Positions 47,127 through 63,277 of a stretch of 64,000 nucleotides of DNA are shown here, piece after piece. The stretch is from IMG/VR virus record IMGVR_UViG_2595698945_000001, one strand, 5' to 3'. The notes under the pieces were generated by a model. The model was not told the DNA's origin. It worked only from the letters and a program-made list of their open reading frames with translations, and made no database searches. A program made the position numbers and the translations under genes. The DNA is from a virus. Lineage: Duplodnaviria; Heunggongvirae; Uroviricota; Caudoviricetes. How positions within the stretch are numbered: the first letter of the stretch is position 1; every line of letters begins with the position of its first letter.

Positions 47127-47996
47127 ATGAAATTTACGAAACTGACCGATCATCTGAAACTTGCCGCAGACAAACTCGTGGGATTTAAACCTGAGCCTTA
47201 CGAGTTGAATCCTGGTTTTGGCAAGGCAACGGAAAGCATCTACCTGATGGTTGACCAGTTCCACACACTGTTTCAGCACCCACGCCGTGCCATTCCAGAT
47301 CCGGCATTACTGCGTCTGCGTGCCAAGCTGATCCACGAAGAAGCAGTTACCGAGGGCATCCCGGCAGCCAAAAATGGGGATATGACGGCACTGCTGGACG
47401 CGATGGCTGACTTCCTTTACGTGGGCGTCGGCACAATGGTGGCCATCAAAGGCGGCATCTCGACGGGCATGAGTTACTACACCCAAGAGCAGAGTGTTGA
47501 TCGCTTCATCCACACCATCATGGTTCCGGGCAACACGGTCTTTGACGATATGGCCATCCCGTTTGAAGAAGCAAAAGAAGCTGCATTAATGCTGAATGCA
47601 CTGGCTGACAAACTCGAAGCGAAGCCGATAAGCGATTCCGAATTGGTGCAGGAGCTGCGCCGCGTGATGAACAAAATCTACGTTGCCTGCATGATGACCT
47701 ACCGCCTGGCTGATTTTCTCGGTATCGATATTGTTGAGCTGGTGGCAGAAATCCATCGTTCCAACATGACCAAGCTGTGGCCGGCTGACGCAGAAGAGCG
47801 TCGTGTGGCGGTAGAGAATTGCAAATACGACAAGGAAGACCTGGGCTTCCGCCATGCTGAAGGGACTGACATGATGATTGGCTTCAGAATTACTGATGGC
47901 AAGATCCTCAAATCCCCAACCTACAGCGATGTGGATCTGACTCGCTTTGTTGAGAAGGCGAAATCCTCATCTCTTTACGAGATGGTAAAAAAATAA
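47127..47996 (+). CDS. Hypothetical protein (nucleotide-metabolism module; possible NTP pyrophosphohydrolase-like)
   Basis: ATG at 47127 after RBS AAGGAAAG. No firm motif. Confidence 0.4.
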   Translation: MKFTKLTDHLKLAADKLVGFKPEPYELNPGFGKATESIYLMVDQFHTLFQHPRRAIPDPALLRLRAKLIHEEAVTEGIPAAKNGDMTALLDAMADFLYVGVGTMVAIKGGISTGMSYYTQEQSVDRFIHTIMVPGNTVFDDMAIPFEEAKEAALMLNALADKLEAKPISDSELVQELRRVMNKIYVACMMTYRLADFLGIDIVELVAEIHRSNMTKLWPADAEERRVAVENCKYDKEDLGFRHAEGTDMMIGFRITDGKILKSPTYSDVDLTRFVEKAKSSSLYEMVKK

Positions 47997-58130: not shown

Positions 58131-59816
58131 ATGAATACAGCCCTTTCCATCATTGACGTTATCACCCCAAACACTGATATCGACTATCGGCAGGAAATGA
58201 ACGTCATCCACGAAATTGTGGCCGAGTGCGAGAAAGAGATCGCCTTCATGCATCAGGTTCACGACTTCGTCTATGGCGACGAACGCCACAACATGATTAA
58301 CCGCCTGCTGCGACTCAACCACCGGCCAGATGACGAGCGCACACGCTTTAACAGAGCCTGGCTGGACAAAGTCGACCTGGAATGGGTGAAACAGAATATC
58401 TGGGCCGAGTACTGGAAGAAGGTCACGGATATGACAAACGTTCTGCTGATCATGCCAGCTTCCCGCCGCGACGAGTGGCGCGAGCAGTTCATCGAGGGCA
58501 AGCAGGAAACCATCAGGACTGACAGAACCGGCTACCAGATGAAAGTTAAGGAGTTCGTTGGCGTGCCGGAGTTCAAAGCAGAAACGGTCATCCCCACGAT
58601 GCTCAATCTGCTGAATGACAGGCACAAATATCTCTCTGAGCGCGTGTATGGCTTGTTTAAGGCGCTGAGTCCTGCCCACAAGACCAACAAGACGAACGGC
58701 TTTAGCGAGCGTCTGATCATCGCCAACTGCATTTCCGCGTTCTGGCGGGATAGCGTGAGCGTGAACTACCGGAAAGAGGACTACATCGACGACCTGCGCG
58801 TCATGCTTCATTTCTTCGCGCACAAAGAGTTCATCACCATCAACCGCACAACTGAGATGCTATCAGCTGCGTACCGGGCAAACGACTGCCAGACTGGTGA
58901 CTGGATGAATGTCGACGGAAACCTGATGCGCGTGAAGATGTTCAAGAACGGCAACGTTCACTTTGAAATACATCCTGACGTGGCCTGGAAGCTGAATGAG
59001 GTGCTGGCTTACAGTATGCCTGCAGCAATCCCAGCGCCATGCCGTACTGCACCCAAAACACGGGCACCAAAAGAATTCGGGTTAATCCAGAAGACGATCT
59101 CCGAGCCGGTTCGTACCGCGCTGCGCGACGGGCGATTCAGCAAAGACAAAGGCGTCTGGTACTTCTCTGATTCCAACCTCCAGAAGTCGCAGGTGGAAGA
59201 GCTTGAGCGCACACTGAACTTCATTGGCGGCGTGCAGGAGAAAAAGCACTGGCAGTTCCCGTATGAGATCGGCCATACGCTCAATACGATTGTGGCCACC
59301 GGTTTAATACCGGATACGAAATCACACCAGTTCTACCCTACCCCACGTTTGATAGCGGAGTACGTTGCCAGAGCCATAGAGCTGAAGCCAGGTGAGAAGC
59401 TGTTGGAGCCTGAAGCCGGGCGCGGAGATCTGCTGGCCTGCATCGACGCCAATCCGGAAGACGTTACCTGCATAGAAGTCGCACCTCTCTTCGCTGATAT
59501 CCTGCTTGGCAAGGGGTACACAAATACGGTCTGCTGCGACTTCATGAAGTGGTCTGAGGACAACGCAGGTTATCAGTTCGACAAAATCGTCATGAACCCG
59601 CCCTACTCTCTTGGCCGTCACAGAGAGCATACGCTGGCCGCACTGGAGCATCTTAAAGTCGGCGGGCGACTGGTGGCTGTACTGCCGGGTGATGCGCCAG
59701 TTCTGAACTGGATGACGCTGGATAATTTCGTTTATGCCAAAGGGAAGTCGTTTACTGACGAGTTTGAAGATACCGGAATCACTGTCAGCGTATACGTTTT
59801 CAAACGTGTAAAATGA
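58131..59816 (+). CDS. Orphan DNA methyltransferase (amino-MTase; C-terminal catalytic domain, ~400-aa N-terminal domain of unknown function)
   Basis: FYPTPR (motif X), LEPEAGRGDL (motif I), IVMNPPYS (motif IV), all in the last ~150 aa. Confidence 0.6.
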   Translation: MNTALSIIDVITPNTDIDYRQEMNVIHEIVAECEKEIAFMHQVHDFVYGDERHNMINRLLRLNHRPDDERTRFNRAWLDKVDLEWVKQNIWAEYWKKVTDMTNVLLIMPASRRDEWREQFIEGKQETIRTDRTGYQMKVKEFVGVPEFKAETVIPTMLNLLNDRHKYLSERVYGLFKALSPAHKTNKTNGFSERLIIANCISAFWRDSVSVNYRKEDYIDDLRVMLHFFAHKEFITINRTTEMLSAAYRANDCQTGDWMNVDGNLMRVKMFKNGNVHFEIHPDVAWKLNEVLAYSMPAAIPAPCRTAPKTRAPKEFGLIQKTISEPVRTALRDGRFSKDKGVWYFSDSNLQKSQVEELERTLNFIGGVQEKKHWQFPYEIGHTLNTIVATGLIPDTKSHQFYPTPRLIAEYVARAIELKPGEKLLEPEAGRGDLLACIDANPEDVTCIEVAPLFADILLGKGYTNTVCCDFMKWSEDNAGYQFDKIVMNPPYSLGRHREHTLAALEHLKVGGRLVAVLPGDAPVLNWMTLDNFVYAKGKSFTDEFEDTGITVSVYVFKRVK

Positions 59817-59842
59817 TAGGTAAATACTTACCTAATTTATGT
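59812..59842. promoter_or_regulatory. Motif A palindrome copy
   Basis: aaatgataggtaaatacttacctaatttatg. Confidence 0.5.
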
Positions 59843-59874
59843 AAGAATAGATCCACTTTATCAGAGGTAAACAC

Positions 59875-60564
59875 ATGAGCGAAAAATCGAGAATTACATT
59901 CGCCAGCGTTGATCAGGCGAAGCTGCCATTTAATTTAGTGCTACAGGGGAACGCAGGAGCGCCTGCCGGAACCATCAAAATCGACAAGGAGCTTGTGACG
60001 TTCGAAGGTAACTTTGATGAATCGGCGCAGGTTTTTATCGACCATCTGGCACGCCGTTGGAGCCAGCAGTGGAGAGACCTTGAGAAACGCGCCAATGAGT
60101 TTGACCGGTTCATGGACGCAATGGACACAGCAAAAGAGGCTCTGGCTGCCGGCACTCCGTTAGATCTGGAGTCGCTTTTCAAAGGAGAGATGGCCTCTGC
60201 GATGTTCGCCACCATGTTCGCAGGTGAGTTTGTCCGCAGCGGCGCCAGAAACTACCTGGAGCTGGGGTACAACGTTCCTGAAATGGGCGAGTTTACCGTC
60301 ACCATCCAGCGCAAAGAAGGTAAGACGCCAGGCGAACGTATCGCTGAACTTGAGGCCGTTGTGGATCAGCGTAACGGCGAGTGCGTCCGTTTGATCAACG
60401 AACGTGATGCGCTGCGCGAAGAACAGCTGAACAAAGGCTCGAACACACGCGCGGCCGCAGACATTTACTTCCAGTTAGTTGAGGAATGCCAGATCCCGCC
60501 AGGCGGCTCTTTGGTTGAGTACGTTCGCGAATTGCAGGAGAAAGCAGAGAGGTGCGCGGCATGA
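59875..60564 (+). CDS. Hypothetical protein
   Basis: RBS GAGG. 229 aa. Confidence 0.4.
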   Translation: MSEKSRITFASVDQAKLPFNLVLQGNAGAPAGTIKIDKELVTFEGNFDESAQVFIDHLARRWSQQWRDLEKRANEFDRFMDAMDTAKEALAAGTPLDLESLFKGEMASAMFATMFAGEFVRSGARNYLELGYNVPEMGEFTVTIQRKEGKTPGERIAELEAVVDQRNGECVRLINERDALREEQLNKGSNTRAAADIYFQLVEECQIPPGGSLVEYVRELQEKAERCAA

Positions 60565-60842
60565 ATGACCTGCTTGTCGAGCGAGTCTCCGCTTTTGTTA
60601 AGTCCCCGCTGGACAATCCCCTCACCCGCGGTGAGCAGATGGAGCTGGCAAGGTGGTTTCTGCATATCCATGAGCAGATGGAAGTTTTTAAACAGTTGCC
60701 GGATCTGCCCATTACAGACGGCCATGTTCAGCAAGTGATTAACAGCCACGAAAAAGGCTGGGCGATGATTGTGCCGTGCAAAATTACCTACGAGCTGGCT
60801 AAGGAAGTGCAGGCTAACAGAGCAAGGAGTAAGGAAGAGTAA
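60552..60842 (+). CDS. Hypothetical protein
   Basis: Overlapping start. Confidence 0.4.
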   Translation: MRGMNDLLVERVSAFVKSPLDNPLTRGEQMELARWFLHIHEQMEVFKQLPDLPITDGHVQQVINSHEKGWAMIVPCKITYELAKEVQANRARSKEE

Positions 60843-60844
60843 CT

Positions 60845-61216
60845 ATGAAGTTGGGTAATGCCGTTTCGCTGTTTTTTACAGCATTACTGGAAGGTTTCAA
60901 TTATCGCTTTTGTCCGGTCTGGGATAAGGCGCTGGATACGCTTATTGAGGAAGGAACGCTGCTTGAGGTGCGAAATGGGATCGCGCTGTTTGAGCGCGAC
61001 GCCCAGCTATATGAAGTGTTCGTCGGGGCTGGCTTCAACCACTTTGGGCATCTTATTAGCTTGAATACCAAAGCCATCGACGAGAGCGTTATGCGCCGTC
61101 CGTCGTTCCGTGTAATGGATAAGCTGCAACGTCATGTAAATGCCGAATTACTCCGCGTAGCCAAAGAAAAAGAACGAGAGCTACAGGCGATGATTGGATC
61201 GCTTATCGCTGAGTAA
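60845..61216 (+). CDS. Hypothetical protein
   Basis: 123 aa. Confidence 0.4.
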   Translation: MKLGNAVSLFFTALLEGFNYRFCPVWDKALDTLIEEGTLLEVRNGIALFERDAQLYEVFVGAGFNHFGHLISLNTKAIDESVMRRPSFRVMDKLQRHVNAELLRVAKEKERELQAMIGSLIAE

Positions 61217-61219
61217 ATG

Positions 61220-61254
61220 AAGGCCACTATTGTGGCCTTTAACAATTTGTTTTC
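61220..61254 (+). promoter_or_regulatory. Composite element: ggccacta-N-tgtggcc hairpin plus Motif B
   Basis: aaggccactattgtggcctttaacaatttgttttc. The same composite occurs at 63242-63277. Confidence 0.5.
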
Positions 61255-61307
61255 TACCTTTTCTTATCTGTGAAAATAACCACATCCAGAAAACAACGGA
61301 GTTAAGA

Positions 61308-61949
61308 ATGTCCCGTATTTCCAAAGCCCATATGTTTGCCGCTGGCGCTCATGGCGGCGTTGGCCAGAAAAGAAAATATACCGGTGAAGACTACATCAAC
61401 CACCCGGTTGCTGTCCGCGAGATTGTTGCCTGGCATGGTGGAACCGTGGAGATGCAGATCGCGGCGCTGCTGCATGATGTGGTCGAAGACACCCATGTCA
61501 CCATAGAGATGGTTCGTGAACACTTCGGTGAGCACGTAGCCGAAATGGTTCTGGCTCTGACCAACATTGCCAGACCAGAAGACGGCAATCGAATACAGCG
61601 CTTCATCATCAACGTCCGGGAGCTGGAGCAAAGCCTCGACATGCAGACGCGCATGATCAAGCTGGCTGACCTGCTGGACAATACCTCTTCTATCGTGAGT
61701 CGCGACCCTGAGTTTTCAGCCATCTACCTCGCAGAGAAAGAGCTGATGCTGGCCGTACTCTTTGACGGCAAGGAGATTGGTGCCGATGCCGGTGTTGTCG
61801 AGTACCTGGAGAAAAAAGGCATAGAGCATTCGTTACTGATAAACGCCCGGGCGATGGTGACGAAAGGCATTGCCAGTCTGCAACCGGTACACACCAAACG
61901 TTATGAAAAACACAAAGCGCTGATCTGGAACGCGTGGGAGGCTGCATGA
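61308..61949 (+). CDS. HD-domain small alarmone hydrolase (SpoT/RelA-like (p)ppGpp hydrolase domain, Mesh1-like)
   Basis: AHMFAAGAHGGVGQKRKYTGEDYINHPVAVREIVA...AALLHDVVEDT...FGEHVAEMVLALT matches the SpoT HD hydrolase signature. No synthetase domain. Confidence 0.6.
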   Translation: MSRISKAHMFAAGAHGGVGQKRKYTGEDYINHPVAVREIVAWHGGTVEMQIAALLHDVVEDTHVTIEMVREHFGEHVAEMVLALTNIARPEDGNRIQRFIINVRELEQSLDMQTRMIKLADLLDNTSSIVSRDPEFSAIYLAEKELMLAVLFDGKEIGADAGVVEYLEKKGIEHSLLINARAMVTKGIASLQPVHTKRYEKHKALIWNAWEAA

Positions 61950-62497
61950 AGGTCGAGAAATTAGATGTTCTTTCCTTTGTGCTGACGGATCTGGAACGTC
62001 TCGACCCGGTACGCGTAATGATTGAAAACTACGAGCCGGGTAAGGGAAGAGTCACTATAACCTGCTATGGGAAAGCGTGGACTGCCGCCTGGTTTGCGAT
62101 GGGCGGTGATGATGTTCAGACATTTATTAAGCGAGTGAGTGATGATTACTTGATTGGCTGCCTCGCCCCTCAACTGCGAAGTACGGTCGACGATGACAAC
62201 GACGCAAATCTGATTTTCGTAAAGTCCGAAATCATAAAGTTGCGCAGAGAGAGGGAAATCGACGCAGAAACGGCCAGAAATATCTGGGACGAAGCTGAAA
62301 ACGCTGATGACGTAAAAGAGAGTTGCTGCTGTTTCGGAGTAGGTAAAGAACTGCTGAGTTTGTTTGGCGATGATCCGTGGTATGCAGGCTGGCCAACGGT
62401 GCCAAATCCAGCATACCAATACCTTGAGCGTATTGTCAGAGCGGTACGTGATGGACTGAAAGTGGTTGACGATCAGTCGAGAGAAGCAGTTGGTTAA
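61946..62497 (+). CDS. Hypothetical protein
   Basis: ATG after RBS GGAGG. Overlaps the upstream stop. Confidence 0.4.
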   Translation: MKVEKLDVLSFVLTDLERLDPVRVMIENYEPGKGRVTITCYGKAWTAAWFAMGGDDVQTFIKRVSDDYLIGCLAPQLRSTVDDDNDANLIFVKSEIIKLRREREIDAETARNIWDEAENADDVKESCCCFGVGKELLSLFGDDPWYAGWPTVPNPAYQYLERIVRAVRDGLKVVDDQSREAVG

Positions 62498-62535
62498 GTG
62501 ATATAGTCAGGCGCTTTTGTATTTATGGAGTGAAT

Positions 62536-63234
62536 ATGAAAAATATCCTACTGGCATCATTGTTGGTGGCATCGCCGGTCTCATTTGCAGCCAGCTTTGA
62601 CTGCCAAAAGGCTTCGACAGAAATCGAACACAAAATCTGTGACAACGAACGCCTGTCAAAATTAGACGAACAACTTAGCGCAACCTATTCCAGCGCGCTC
62701 AAGGCTAACCCAGAAAATGCAGATACCCTAAAGGCGGTTCAACGACAGTGGGTAAATATGCGTGGAAAACTCACTGATGATAAGGCTCTGGAGCTGGCTT
62801 ATCTTATCCAAATTAATGGTCTCAATGGCTTAGGTGTTCCGGCCGCTACAGCAGCGGTCAATGAGACACCGAAGCCGGCGCAGAAACAGCCTGAAGTTCA
62901 GGAAAAGACAAGCAAGGCAGACGCAAAGCCGGCCAAGAAAGGTAATGAGCTAACTCTGGAATCATTCCGGGCTAAGTATATTGAGGTCAATGGTGAGTAC
63001 TACAGTACGACATCTCTTCCCAGAGGGAGTTCGTTTTTGTTCACCTGCGCCAGTCGCATTGCTGACGACCAGGTAAATGTCTGGAAGAAGCACGCAGCAA
63101 AAGAGGGCAAGATCGACCTTTTCTTTGAGCTTGAGAATCGCATACACACCGCGATGTTGAATGCCAATTTTCAGCAGCTGAATAGTGATTTAACTAAAAC
63201 AGGCATTTGCGATCTGATTACCGCTGTGCCATAA
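62536..63234 (+). CDS. Periplasmic DUF1311 (LprI/YecT-like, lysozyme-inhibitor-type) protein
   Basis: Signal peptide. FDCQKASTEIEHKICDNERLSKLDEQLSATY...VQRQWVNMR fits the DUF1311 pattern. Confidence 0.5.
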   Translation: MKNILLASLLVASPVSFAASFDCQKASTEIEHKICDNERLSKLDEQLSATYSSALKANPENADTLKAVQRQWVNMRGKLTDDKALELAYLIQINGLNGLGVPAATAAVNETPKPAQKQPEVQEKTSKADAKPAKKGNELTLESFRAKYIEVNGEYYSTTSLPRGSSFLFTCASRIADDQVNVWKKHAAKEGKIDLFFELENRIHTAMLNANFQQLNSDLTKTGICDLITAVP

Positions 63235-63241
63235 GACAGAT

Positions 63242-63277
63242 AAGGCCACTAATTGTGGCCTTAAACAATTTGTTTTA
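63242..63277 (+). promoter_or_regulatory. Composite element: hairpin plus Motif B
   Basis: aaggccactaattgtggccttaaacaatttgtttta. Confidence 0.5.

What the first reader, a model, noticed from the sequence alone, without database searches (positions are those of the whole stretch)
61308..61949. Phage-plasmid-encoded stand-alone (p)ppGpp hydrolase (SAH) in a late accessory cluster
The HD-domain protein has the SpoT/RelA hydrolase signature but no synthetase domain. A phage-borne alarmone hydrolase could collapse the host stringent response during induction. Alternatively, it could degrade alarmone-type or cyclic-nucleotide-type defence signals. It sits in a cluster of small unknown genes (59875-62497) preceded by the orphan MTase.
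Basis: partly seen in the sequence, partly recalled or inferred. Interest (0 to 1): 0.65.

Follow-up and report, generated by a model that had tools for sequence, protein, structure and literature searches.

The report
Known phage SSU5 alarmone hydrolase (PaSpo)
The gene is real and correctly identified, but it is the already published small alarmone hydrolase of Salmonella phage-plasmid SSU5, which has been shown in E. coli to neutralise toxic RelA/SpoT-type enzymes, so the finding is not new.

Summary
The ORF at 61308-61949 (+) is real. It encodes a 213-aa single-domain RelA/SpoT-type HD hydrolase (Pfam HD_4, E 7.6e-19). All Mn-binding and catalytic residues are conserved, and a confident model (pLDDT 97.5) matches only MESH1, SAH and Rel hydrolase structures.

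The window is 100% identical to Salmonella phage SSU5, the archetypal phage-plasmid. The gene is SSU5_099 and is the only such gene in that genome. So it is the published "PaSpo SAH of phage SSU5". Jimmy et al. 2020 showed it neutralises all five tested toxic small alarmone synthetases (toxSAS) in E. coli. It has since been used as a detoxifying co-expression reagent in FaRel2, PhRel2 and CapRel-SJ46 work.

The gene lies in the non-structural part of the genome, far from the virion and lysis genes. Nothing supports cyclic-nucleotide (CBASS/Thoeris) substrates.

New here but minor: the gene is accessory in SSU5-like plasmids, present in roughly a quarter of them, and has been lost by at least two independent deletions.

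Still untested: in vitro substrates of this protein and its role in SSU5's own infection or lysogeny.

Verdict: already known, low interest.

The parts
61308..61949 (+). CDS of the small alarmone hydrolase (213 aa), equal to SSU5_099 / AFL47026.1 / YP_006906731.1, published as PaSpo SAH of phage SSU5. Catalytic codons: R22 61371-61373; H32 61401-61403; H56-D57 61473-61478; E60-D61 61485-61490; D121 61668-61670; N125 61680-61682.
   Evidence: ORF and translation. HD_4 hit. 100% identity to SSU5 and its annotation. Residue alignment to MESH1, Rel and SpoT. Invariant columns in 48 homologues. Fold match.
61298..61301 (+). GGAG ribosome-binding site, 6 nt before the ATG
   Evidence: Read directly from the sequence.
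61218..61241 (+). Terminator-like stem-loop (AAGGCCAC-TATT-GTGGCCTT) between SSU5_098 and the SAH gene. A near-identical copy lies at 63241-63263.
   Evidence: Consensus scan and blastn self-similarity. Function not shown.
61946..62497 (+). SSU5_100, 183-aa protein of unknown function. Its ATG overlaps the SAH stop codon (ATGA), so the two are probably co-transcribed and translationally coupled.
   Evidence: Sequence and annotation. No Pfam or PDB match. phrog_3451, unknown function. Homologues occur without any SAH on other plasmids.
59875..61216 (+). Three upstream small genes: SSU5_096 (59875-60564), SSU5_097 'Eaa' (60561-60842) and SSU5_098 (60845-61216). All of unknown function.
   Evidence: Annotation. 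No Pfam family; PHROGs of unknown function.
58131..59816 (+). SSU5_095, DNA methyltransferase with an N-terminal DUF4942 region. No restriction gene is annotated next to it.
62536..63234 (+). SSU5_101, LprI-family (lysozyme-inhibitor-like) secreted protein, the last + strand gene before the second stem-loop.
60163..60170 (+). Left copy of the 8-bp direct repeat GATCTGGA. The right copy is at 61922-61929. In an Enterobacter plasmid the 1759 bp between the copies, which include the SAH gene, are deleted exactly at this repeat.
   Evidence: blastn breakpoints and junction sequences. Annotation of the fused gene.

Best explanation
This is the small alarmone hydrolase (SAH) of Salmonella phage-plasmid SSU5, published as PaSpo-SSU5. 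It is a single-domain, Mn2+-dependent HD-family 3'-pyrophosphohydrolase of the RelA/SpoT homologue superfamily.

Shown in published work: expressed in E. coli, it abolishes the toxicity of all five tested toxic small alarmone synthetases. These comprise one that makes (pp)pApp (FaRel) and four that pyrophosphorylate the tRNA 3'-CCA end (FaRel2, PhRel, PhRel2, CapRel).

Inferred mechanism: the H32 / H56-D57 / D121 metal site and the E60-D61 pair hydrolyse the 3'-pyrophosphate ester, both on (p)ppGpp/(p)ppApp nucleotides and on pyrophosphorylated tRNA. This restores ATP pools and tRNA charging.

Inferred biological role, not tested: SSU5 and its plasmid relatives carry it as a dispensable accessory gene that pre-empts toxSAS-type abortive-infection defences. 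CapRel-type examples occur in the same enterobacterial hosts. It may also lower host (p)ppGpp.
For: Identity: window 59800-62600 is 100% identical to SSU5 84162-86962. The ORF is SSU5_099. tblastn finds only one such gene in the SSU5 genome, so it must be the 'SSU5 SAH' of the papers.

Family: HD_4 at E 7.6e-19. The best PDB sequence matches are Rel, SpoT, MESH1 and SAH hydrolases.

Residues: R22, K23, Y29, H32, H56, D57, E60, D61, D121 and N125 align with MESH1 R24, K25, Y32, H35, H61, D62, E65, D66, D122 and N126 (MESH1 numbering from my own knowledge of that protein). R22, Y29, H32, H56, E60, D61, D121 and N125 are invariant, and K23 and D57 at least 90% conserved, in 48 homologues.

Fold: AlphaFold model with pLDDT 97.5 and pTM 0.93. 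Its 50 best PDB fold matches are all RSH-family proteins.

Function: PMC7229694, Table 1 and text, reports that the SSU5 SAH (PaSpo subfamily) neutralises CapRel, PhRel2, FaRel2, PhRel and FaRel. PMC11559606 reports that leaky expression suffices to neutralise FaRel2 and ascribes this to removal of the tRNA modification. It was used to permit CapRel-SJ46 and PhRel2 overexpression. SAH enzymes ATfaRel and MESH1 restore aminoacylation of pyrophosphorylated tRNA in vitro.

Context: no synthetase domain in the neighbours. CapRel systems are known from a Salmonella phage and from Enterobacter.
Against: In the papers I could read, the direct biochemistry (hydrolysis of ppGpp/ppApp, de-pyrophosphorylation of tRNA) was done with MESH1 and C. 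marina ATfaRel, not with the SSU5 protein. For the SSU5 protein there is in vivo neutralisation only.

No experiment has tested the gene in SSU5 infection, induction or plasmid carriage. Its time of expression is unknown.

The gene is missing or truncated in many SSU5-like plasmids. So it is not needed for the basic life cycle, and any benefit must be conditional.
Confidence: 0.85

Rival explanations
1. Its main native job is to hydrolyse the host's own (p)ppGpp. That would switch off the stringent response during lytic growth or induction, so that rRNA, translation and nucleotide supply stay high for phage production.
For: The hydrolase site matches (p)ppGpp hydrolases such as Rel, SpoT and MESH1 residue for residue. 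The gene lies just downstream of a large nucleotide-supply and replication module with ribonucleotide reductase, thymidylate synthase, DHFR and a MazG-like pyrophosphohydrolase. Stand-alone SAHs are widespread in large lytic phages, where authors propose the same idea.
Against: Nobody has measured (p)ppGpp in cells expressing this protein or infected by SSU5. The only phenotypes on record are toxSAS neutralisation. This rival is compatible with the best explanation rather than exclusive of it.
Confidence: 0.3
2. It acts for the lysogen, not the phage. Expressed from the resident plasmid, it would protect the host against (p)ppApp-synthetase toxins delivered by competitors (Tas1-type type VI effectors) or against toxSAS carried by other prophages. 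It would be an immunity or lysogenic-conversion gene.
For: It neutralises the (pp)pApp producer FaRel. Bacterial SAHs are described as self-resistance partners of toxic alarmone synthetases. The element lives mostly as a plasmid in clinical Enterobacteriaceae.
Against: No data show expression in the plasmid state. The gene has been lost repeatedly in plasmid lineages.
Confidence: 0.12
3. It degrades cyclic-nucleotide or other non-pyrophosphate immune signals (CBASS, Thoeris, Pycsar).
For: Only the general precedent that phages encode enzymes destroying immune signalling nucleotides.
Against: Every sequence, profile and fold match is to RSH 3'-pyrophosphohydrolases. None is to a known cyclic-nucleotide phosphodiesterase or sponge. 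The residues that grip the 3'-pyrophosphate are all retained.
Confidence: 0.02
4. It acts mainly as an NADPH (2'-phosphate) phosphatase, as reported for human MESH1, and so remodels host redox metabolism.
For: MESH1 structures are the top fold matches, including NADPH and PAPS complexes. MESH1 is described as an NADPH phosphatase.
Against: Identity to MESH1 is only about 28%. The recorded phenotype is toxSAS neutralisation, and NADPH activity is untested for this protein.
Confidence: 0.04

Closest known systems
PaSpo SAH of Salmonella phage SSU5 (Jimmy et al. 2020, PNAS, PMC7229694; reagent plasmids VHp847 / pMG25-paSpo in later papers)
   Same: It is the same protein. The window is 100% identical to SSU5 and this is the only RSH hydrolase gene in that genome.
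   Different: Nothing. The paper's supplements, which would give the accession used, were not available to me, so the identity rests on there being a single candidate gene.
C. marina ATfaRel, the SAH antitoxin of the FaRel toxSAS module (PbcSpo subfamily), and the Salmonella phage PVP-SE1 SAH
   Same: Single-domain RSH hydrolases that neutralise all five toxSAS toxins tested. ATfaRel removes the tRNA 3'-pyrophosphate in vitro.
   Different: ATfaRel is encoded next to its toxin in a three-gene operon. The SSU5 gene has no synthetase neighbour. The authors place it in a different SAH subfamily, PaSpo rather than PbcSpo.
Human and Drosophila MESH1 (PDB 3NR1, 3NQW, 5VXA, 9CHY)
   Same: Best fold matches (TM 0.74-0.76 normalised to target, probability 1.00). 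All active-site residues align. MESH1 also neutralises toxSAS.
   Different: About 28% identity. The SSU5 protein is roughly 35 residues longer. Its clade has an 18-residue insertion (about 165-182) and a longer C-terminal helix that are absent from most homologues.
Bacterial SAHs with solved structures: P. aeruginosa SAH (6YVC, 6Z3N), C. glutamicum RelH (7QOC/7QOD), Leptospira SAH (7QOE), Bacteroides (p)ppApp hydrolase Aph1 (7SMG)
   Same: Same fold and the same stand-alone architecture.
   Different: Low identity (20-25%). These are chromosomal housekeeping or immunity genes rather than phage-borne.
Hydrolase domain of long RSH enzymes (Rel, SpoT)
   Same: Strongest sequence matches: M. tuberculosis Rel at E 4.3e-14 and SpoT at E 4e-13. 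Same catalytic motifs.
   Different: No synthetase, TGS or ACT domains. The match covers only positions 1-123 of the 687-position spoT_relA model, and the score of 86 bits is far below its 499-bit cut-off.

Membership tests
RelA/SpoT-homologue hydrolase domain (Pfam HD_4, PF13328) | Profile match above the curated threshold | tested here: met
   68.4 bits against a 27.2-bit cut-off, E 7.6e-19, residues 8-135. phrog_990 'metal-dependent phosphohydrolase' at E 2.9e-53.
RelA/SpoT-homologue hydrolase domain (Pfam HD_4, PF13328) | Metal-binding H...HD...D residues | tested here: met
   H32, H56-D57 and D121 align with MESH1 H35, H61-D62 and D122, and with the same motifs in Rel and SpoT. H32, H56 and D121 are invariant and D57 at least 90% conserved in 48 homologues.
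RelA/SpoT-homologue hydrolase domain (Pfam HD_4, PF13328) | Catalytic ED pair and substrate-binding R/K, Y and N residues | tested here: met
   E60-D61, R22-K23, Y29 and N125 are aligned and conserved.
RelA/SpoT-homologue hydrolase domain (Pfam HD_4, PF13328) | All-helical RSH hydrolase fold | tested here: met
   Model pLDDT 97.5. All 50 listed PDB fold matches are RSH-family proteins, with TM up to 0.76.
Small alarmone hydrolase (SAH) | Single hydrolase domain with no synthetase or regulatory domains | tested here: met
   213 aa with only HD_4/HD hits. Only the N-terminal fifth of the long-RSH model is matched.
Small alarmone hydrolase (SAH) | Hydrolysis of the 3'-pyrophosphate of (p)ppGpp/(p)ppApp | not testable with these tools
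   For this protein, the papers I read report only in vivo neutralisation of alarmone- and tRNA-directed toxSAS. In vitro assays were done with other SAHs.
PaSpo subfamily of SAH (Jimmy et al. 2020 classification) | Placement in the RSH phylogeny or subfamily HMM | not tested
   The assignment is taken from PMC7229694. The subfamily models are not available here. By plain phmmer the P. aeruginosa SAH is a weak match (E 2e-4).
Type IV SAH antitoxin of a toxSAS toxin-antitoxin operon (ATfaRel type) | Encoded next to a toxic small alarmone synthetase gene | tested here: not met
   None of the eight flanking proteins has a RelA_SpoT synthetase or any related Pfam domain. The papers call it a stand-alone phage-encoded SAH.
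Type IV SAH antitoxin of a toxSAS toxin-antitoxin operon (ATfaRel type) | Neutralises toxSAS toxicity without needing a cognate partner | not testable with these tools
   Reported as positive for all five toxSAS in PMC7229694, Table 1.
SSU5-group phage-plasmid | Sequence identity with SSU5/pHCM2-type elements that are both phage and plasmid | tested here: met
   100% identity to SSU5. 96-98% identity to non-mobilizable plasmids of about 105-125 kb (IncFIB in the two typed), including pHCM2 of S. Typhi CT18. Virion, lysis, Par and replication genes are in one genome. SSU5 is named as a phage-plasmid in PMC7969092.
Late (virion/lysis) gene cluster | Location in, or co-transcription with, the structural/lysis module | tested here: not met
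   Structural and lysis genes occupy SSU5 0.1-29 kb. This gene is at 85.7 kb, among methylase, RNase H, antirepressor and Eaa/Ea22-like genes. No expression data are available.

The most novel reading that the evidence does not exclude
In its native setting the SSU5 hydrolase is a true counter-defence gene. It would let SSU5-type phage-plasmids infect or be induced in enterobacteria armed with CapRel-type tRNA-pyrophosphorylating toxSAS systems, by stripping the pyrophosphate from tRNA faster than the toxin adds it. Its patchy distribution and repeated deletion would then reflect an arms race with those systems. This would be the first phage anti-toxSAS enzyme demonstrated during infection. 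The idea itself was already put forward by Jimmy et al. 2020.
Probability: 0.45. Interest if true: 0.45.

Novelty: already known. Interest (0 to 1): 0.15.

Why it matters
As a discovery it does not matter much. The protein has been catalogued, named and functionally tested since 2020, and it is in routine use as a tool to tame toxSAS toxins.

What remains open is modest but real. Nobody has shown what the gene does for SSU5 itself, whether counter-defence, stringent-response control or protection of the lysogen. Nobody has published the in vitro substrate range of this particular enzyme.

SSU5-like phage-plasmids are very common in clinical Klebsiella, E. coli, Enterobacter and Salmonella. The presence or absence of the gene could therefore help to explain which strains these elements can enter.

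Tried and rejected
- I looked for the accession of the tested SSU5 SAH in the supplements of PMC7229694, but none are held. Identity therefore rests on SSU5 having a single RSH hydrolase gene.
- I considered that the SAH might be the antitoxin of an adjacent toxSAS. I rejected this because no neighbour has a synthetase domain.
- I considered that the translationally coupled downstream gene SSU5_100 might be an obligate partner. I rejected this because its homologues occur without any SAH on conjugative plasmids of Providencia, Vibrio, Aeromonas and Pseudomonas, and fused to the N-terminus of SSU5_096 in plasmids lacking the SAH. It has no Pfam or PDB relative.
- The phrog_3451 'split' first looked like an insertion of an SAH cassette into a gene. 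The junction sequence argues for the reverse. The fused gene keeps the last 16 nt of the SAH reading frame as a linker (RVGGC), and the breakpoint falls on an 8-bp direct repeat, so it is a deletion.
- The sigma-70 promoter scan gave no convincing promoter in front of the gene and no enrichment over shuffles, so expression timing could not be inferred.
- Literature searches for a phage SAH tested as an anti-defence gene during infection found only speculation.
- I found no mention of ppGpp or an HD domain in the Klebsiella SSU5-like plasmid study, and none of ppGpp or alarmones in the phage-plasmid survey.

Full report
**1. The observation**

The + strand carries an ATG-initiated ORF at exactly 61308-61949 (213 aa), preceded by GGAG at 61298-61301.
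- It matches Pfam HD_4 (PF13328) at E 7.6e-19, 68.4 bits against a 27.2-bit threshold, and the general HD family at E 4.2e-7.
- Against NCBIfam it matches only the first 123 of the 687 positions of the spoT_relA model. That is the hydrolase domain, at a score far below the full-length cut-off.
- In PHROGs it belongs to phrog_990, 'metal-dependent phosphohydrolase' (E 2.9e-53).

**2. Catalytic residues and fold**

- phmmer against PDB sequences returns essentially only RSH-family chains at E <= 1e-3: M. tuberculosis Rel, SpoT, human and fly MESH1, several bacterial SAHs and a (p)ppApp hydrolase.
- In the printed alignments, query R22-K23, Y29, H32, H56-D57, E60-D61, D121 and N125 pair with the corresponding residues of MESH1 and with the same motifs in Rel and SpoT (positions computed). 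In UniProt numbering, from my own knowledge of MESH1, those are R24-K25, Y32, H35, H61-D62, E65-D66, D122 and N126.
- In an alignment of 48 homologues down to about 43% identity, R22, Y29, H32, H56, E60, D61, D121 and N125 are invariant. K23 and D57 are at least 90% conserved.
- An AlphaFold2 model built on that alignment is very confident (mean pLDDT 97.5, pTM 0.93).
- Its 50 best Foldseek matches in the PDB are all RSH-family proteins: MESH1, SAHs of Pseudomonas, Corynebacterium, Leptospira and Treponema, and the catalytic regions of Rel, SpoT and RelA. TM-scores reach 0.76 normalised to the target.

The HD motif residues do align with the SpoT/Rel catalytic residues, so the refutation test fails to refute.

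**3. What the sequence is**

Window 59800-62600 is 100% identical over its whole length to Salmonella phage SSU5 (JQ965645.1 / NC_018843.1, 84162-86962). Window coordinate equals SSU5 coordinate minus 24362.

The ORF is SSU5_099. GenBank annotates it 'putative guanosine polyphosphate pyrophosphohydrolase/synthetase' and RefSeq 'metal-dependent phosphohydrolase'. tblastn of the protein finds one place only in the SSU5 genome.

SSU5 is the type member of the largest group of enterobacterial phage-plasmids (PMC7969092). The same 2.8-kb stretch is 96-98% identical in non-mobilizable plasmids of about 105-125 kb in Enterobacter, Citrobacter, Salmonella and E. coli, including pHCM2 of S. Typhi CT18; the two I examined in detail are typed IncFIB. 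'Phage-plasmid-encoded' is correct.

**4. It is already published and functionally tested**

Jimmy et al. 2020 (PNAS, PMC7229694) surveyed RSH proteins and noted stand-alone SAHs in phages and prophages. [quoted passage not shown] The authors explicitly proposed that incoming phages could bypass alarmone-mediated defence by encoding hydrolases.

Kurata et al. 2021 showed that four of these toxins pyrophosphorylate the tRNA 3'-CCA end rather than make alarmones. They also showed that the SAH enzymes MESH1 and ATfaRel reverse this in vitro. The SSU5 PaSpo plasmid VHp847 was used to allow PhRel2 overexpression.

The same construct was used to overproduce CapRel-SJ46 (Zhang et al. 2022, PMC9712102) and FaRel2 (Sci Adv 2024, PMC11559606). 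In the latter, leaky expression was enough to neutralise the toxin, and the authors attribute this to removal of the tRNA modification.

Since SSU5 has a single RSH hydrolase gene, the finding is that protein. I could not confirm the accession in the supplements, which are not held.

**5. How it most likely works**

- Shown (literature): in vivo neutralisation of one (pp)pApp-producing and four tRNA-pyrophosphorylating toxSAS.
- Shown here: an intact RSH hydrolase active site and fold, a single-domain architecture, and no synthetase partner among the eight flanking genes.
- Inferred: Mn2+-dependent hydrolysis of the 3'-pyrophosphate ester on nucleotides and on tRNA, by analogy with MESH1 and ATfaRel.
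- Inferred and untested: the benefit to SSU5. I think counter-defence against toxSAS (CapRel-type) systems is the most likely benefit, because those systems occur in the same hosts: CapRel-SJ46 from a Salmonella phage and CapRel-Ebc from Enterobacter.

Lowering host (p)ppGpp during replication is a compatible second effect. The gene lies downstream of a large replication and nucleotide-supply module. Protecting the lysogen from (p)ppApp toxins is a third possibility. Degradation of cyclic-nucleotide signals has no support. A MESH1-like NADPH phosphatase role is possible only in principle.

**6. Context and the 'late' label**

In SSU5 the terminase, capsid, tail, holin, endolysin and spanin genes occupy 0.1-29 kb. 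Replication, recombination and nucleotide-metabolism genes occupy roughly 34-77 kb. The SAH lies at 85.7 kb in a run of + strand genes comprising two methyltransferases, RNase H, an antirepressor, Eaa and Ea22-like proteins, the SAH, SSU5_100 and an LprI-family protein. After it come small unknown genes (including a DUF1380 gene), then the repressor and partition region at 94-103 kb.

Nothing ties the cluster to late transcription. The gene content looks more like the early or accessory regions of lambdoid phages and plasmids. No expression data were found, so 'late' is unsupported rather than disproved.

The SAH stop overlaps the start of SSU5_100 (ATGA at 61946-61949). A terminator-like stem-loop lies just upstream at 61218-61241, and a near-identical copy follows the LprI gene at 63241-63263. 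These may delimit a three-gene unit, but the scan found no convincing promoter.

**7. Distribution (new here, minor)**

An SSU5-type large terminase (>= 80% identity) is found in about 800 plasmid records. An SAH at >= 80% identity is found in about 169. Further Klebsiella plasmids of about 110 kb carry a full-length allele at 52-58% identity.

| Genus | Records with SAH | Records with terminase |
|---|---|---|
| Salmonella | 41 | 50 |
| Citrobacter | 16 | 25 |
| Enterobacter | 45 | 93 |
| Escherichia | 46 | 208 |
| Klebsiella | 55 | 345 |
| Yersinia (pMT1 type) | not in the top ten genera listed | 62 |

These genus counts include all matches with E <= 1e-5 (any identity), so they are approximate.

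The gene is therefore accessory, present in roughly a quarter of these elements. Two independent losses were resolved.
- In E. hormaechei pFJMB80149_2, a 1759-bp deletion between 8-bp direct repeats (GATCTGGA, 60163-60170 and 61922-61929) removes the C-terminal half of SSU5_096, SSU5_097, SSU5_098 and the SAH. It fuses the SSU5_096 N-terminus in frame to SSU5_100. This fused form explains why both proteins hit one PHROG, phrog_3451.
- In pEh22_1, a 777-bp deletion (61636-62412) truncates the SAH after about residue 108, removing D121 and N125, and also removes most of SSU5_100.

Beyond phage-plasmids, related SAHs occur in 267 phage records, mostly jumbo and other large lytic phages of Pseudomonas, Erwinia, Caulobacter and others.

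**8. Comparison, novelty and verdict**

The protein is a member of the RSH hydrolase / SAH family by every feature testable here. It is not an ATfaRel-type antitoxin by genomic context, although it works like one. It is not a long RSH.

It differs from most homologues by a clade-specific 18-residue insertion (about 165-182) and a longer C-terminal helix. Their significance is unknown.

The finding is correct but already known, so interest is low. The residual open questions are the enzyme's own in vitro substrate range and its role in the life of SSU5.

Noticed in passing
window 59875-60183 and 61946-62497; locus L004 3689-4513: The N-terminal 103 aa of SSU5_096 and the whole of SSU5_100 match the two halves of one PHROG (phrog_3451). 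In Enterobacter hormaechei pFJMB80149_2 they form a single 274-aa gene. The fusion arose by a 1759-bp deletion between 8-bp direct repeats (GATCTGGA) that removed the SAH and three other gene segments.
   Followed up: yes
locus L005 4001-4357 (E. hormaechei pEh22_1); corresponds to window 61636-62412: An independent 777-bp deletion truncates the SAH to 118 aa, without D121/N125, and removes most of SSU5_100. This is a second loss of the same gene in a plasmid lineage.
   Followed up: yes
window 61218-61241 and 63241-63263: Two near-identical GC-rich stem-loops (AAGGCCAC-loop-GTGGCCTT) flank the SAH / SSU5_100 / LprI genes. The second lies between the convergent LprI and ydfZ genes. They are possibly terminators bounding a small transcription unit.
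   Followed up: partly
window 61946-62497 (SSU5_100): A cysteine-containing 183-aa protein with no Pfam or PDB relative. It has 30-48% identical homologues on conjugative plasmids of Providencia, Vibrio, Aeromonas, Pseudomonas and Yersinia that lack the SAH. It may be a plasmid/phage accessory (perhaps anti-defence) gene in its own right.
   Followed up: partly
protein P0008: A 186-aa E. coli protein named 'AAA family ATPase' (Pfam AAA_28) is 98% identical to 73% of the SAH. It looks like a chimeric or mis-annotated ORF joining SAH sequence to something else.
   Followed up: no
Klebsiella SSU5-like plasmids (e.g. H91, H92; P0017-P0064): Many Klebsiella plasmids of about 110 kb carry a full-length second SAH allele only 52-58% identical to the SSU5 one. 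This points to old divergence or allele replacement within the phage-plasmid supergroup.
   Followed up: no
window 58131-59816 (SSU5_095): A large 561-aa protein combines an N-terminal DUF4942 region with a C-terminal methyltransferase region, and no restriction gene is annotated beside it. Its C-terminal part resembles segments of giant (1,200-3,900 aa) phage proteins in PHROGs.
   Followed up: no
SSU5 71489-72358 (window 47127-47996): [quoted passage not shown] This is a second enzyme class sometimes proposed to act on (p)ppGpp.
   Followed up: no
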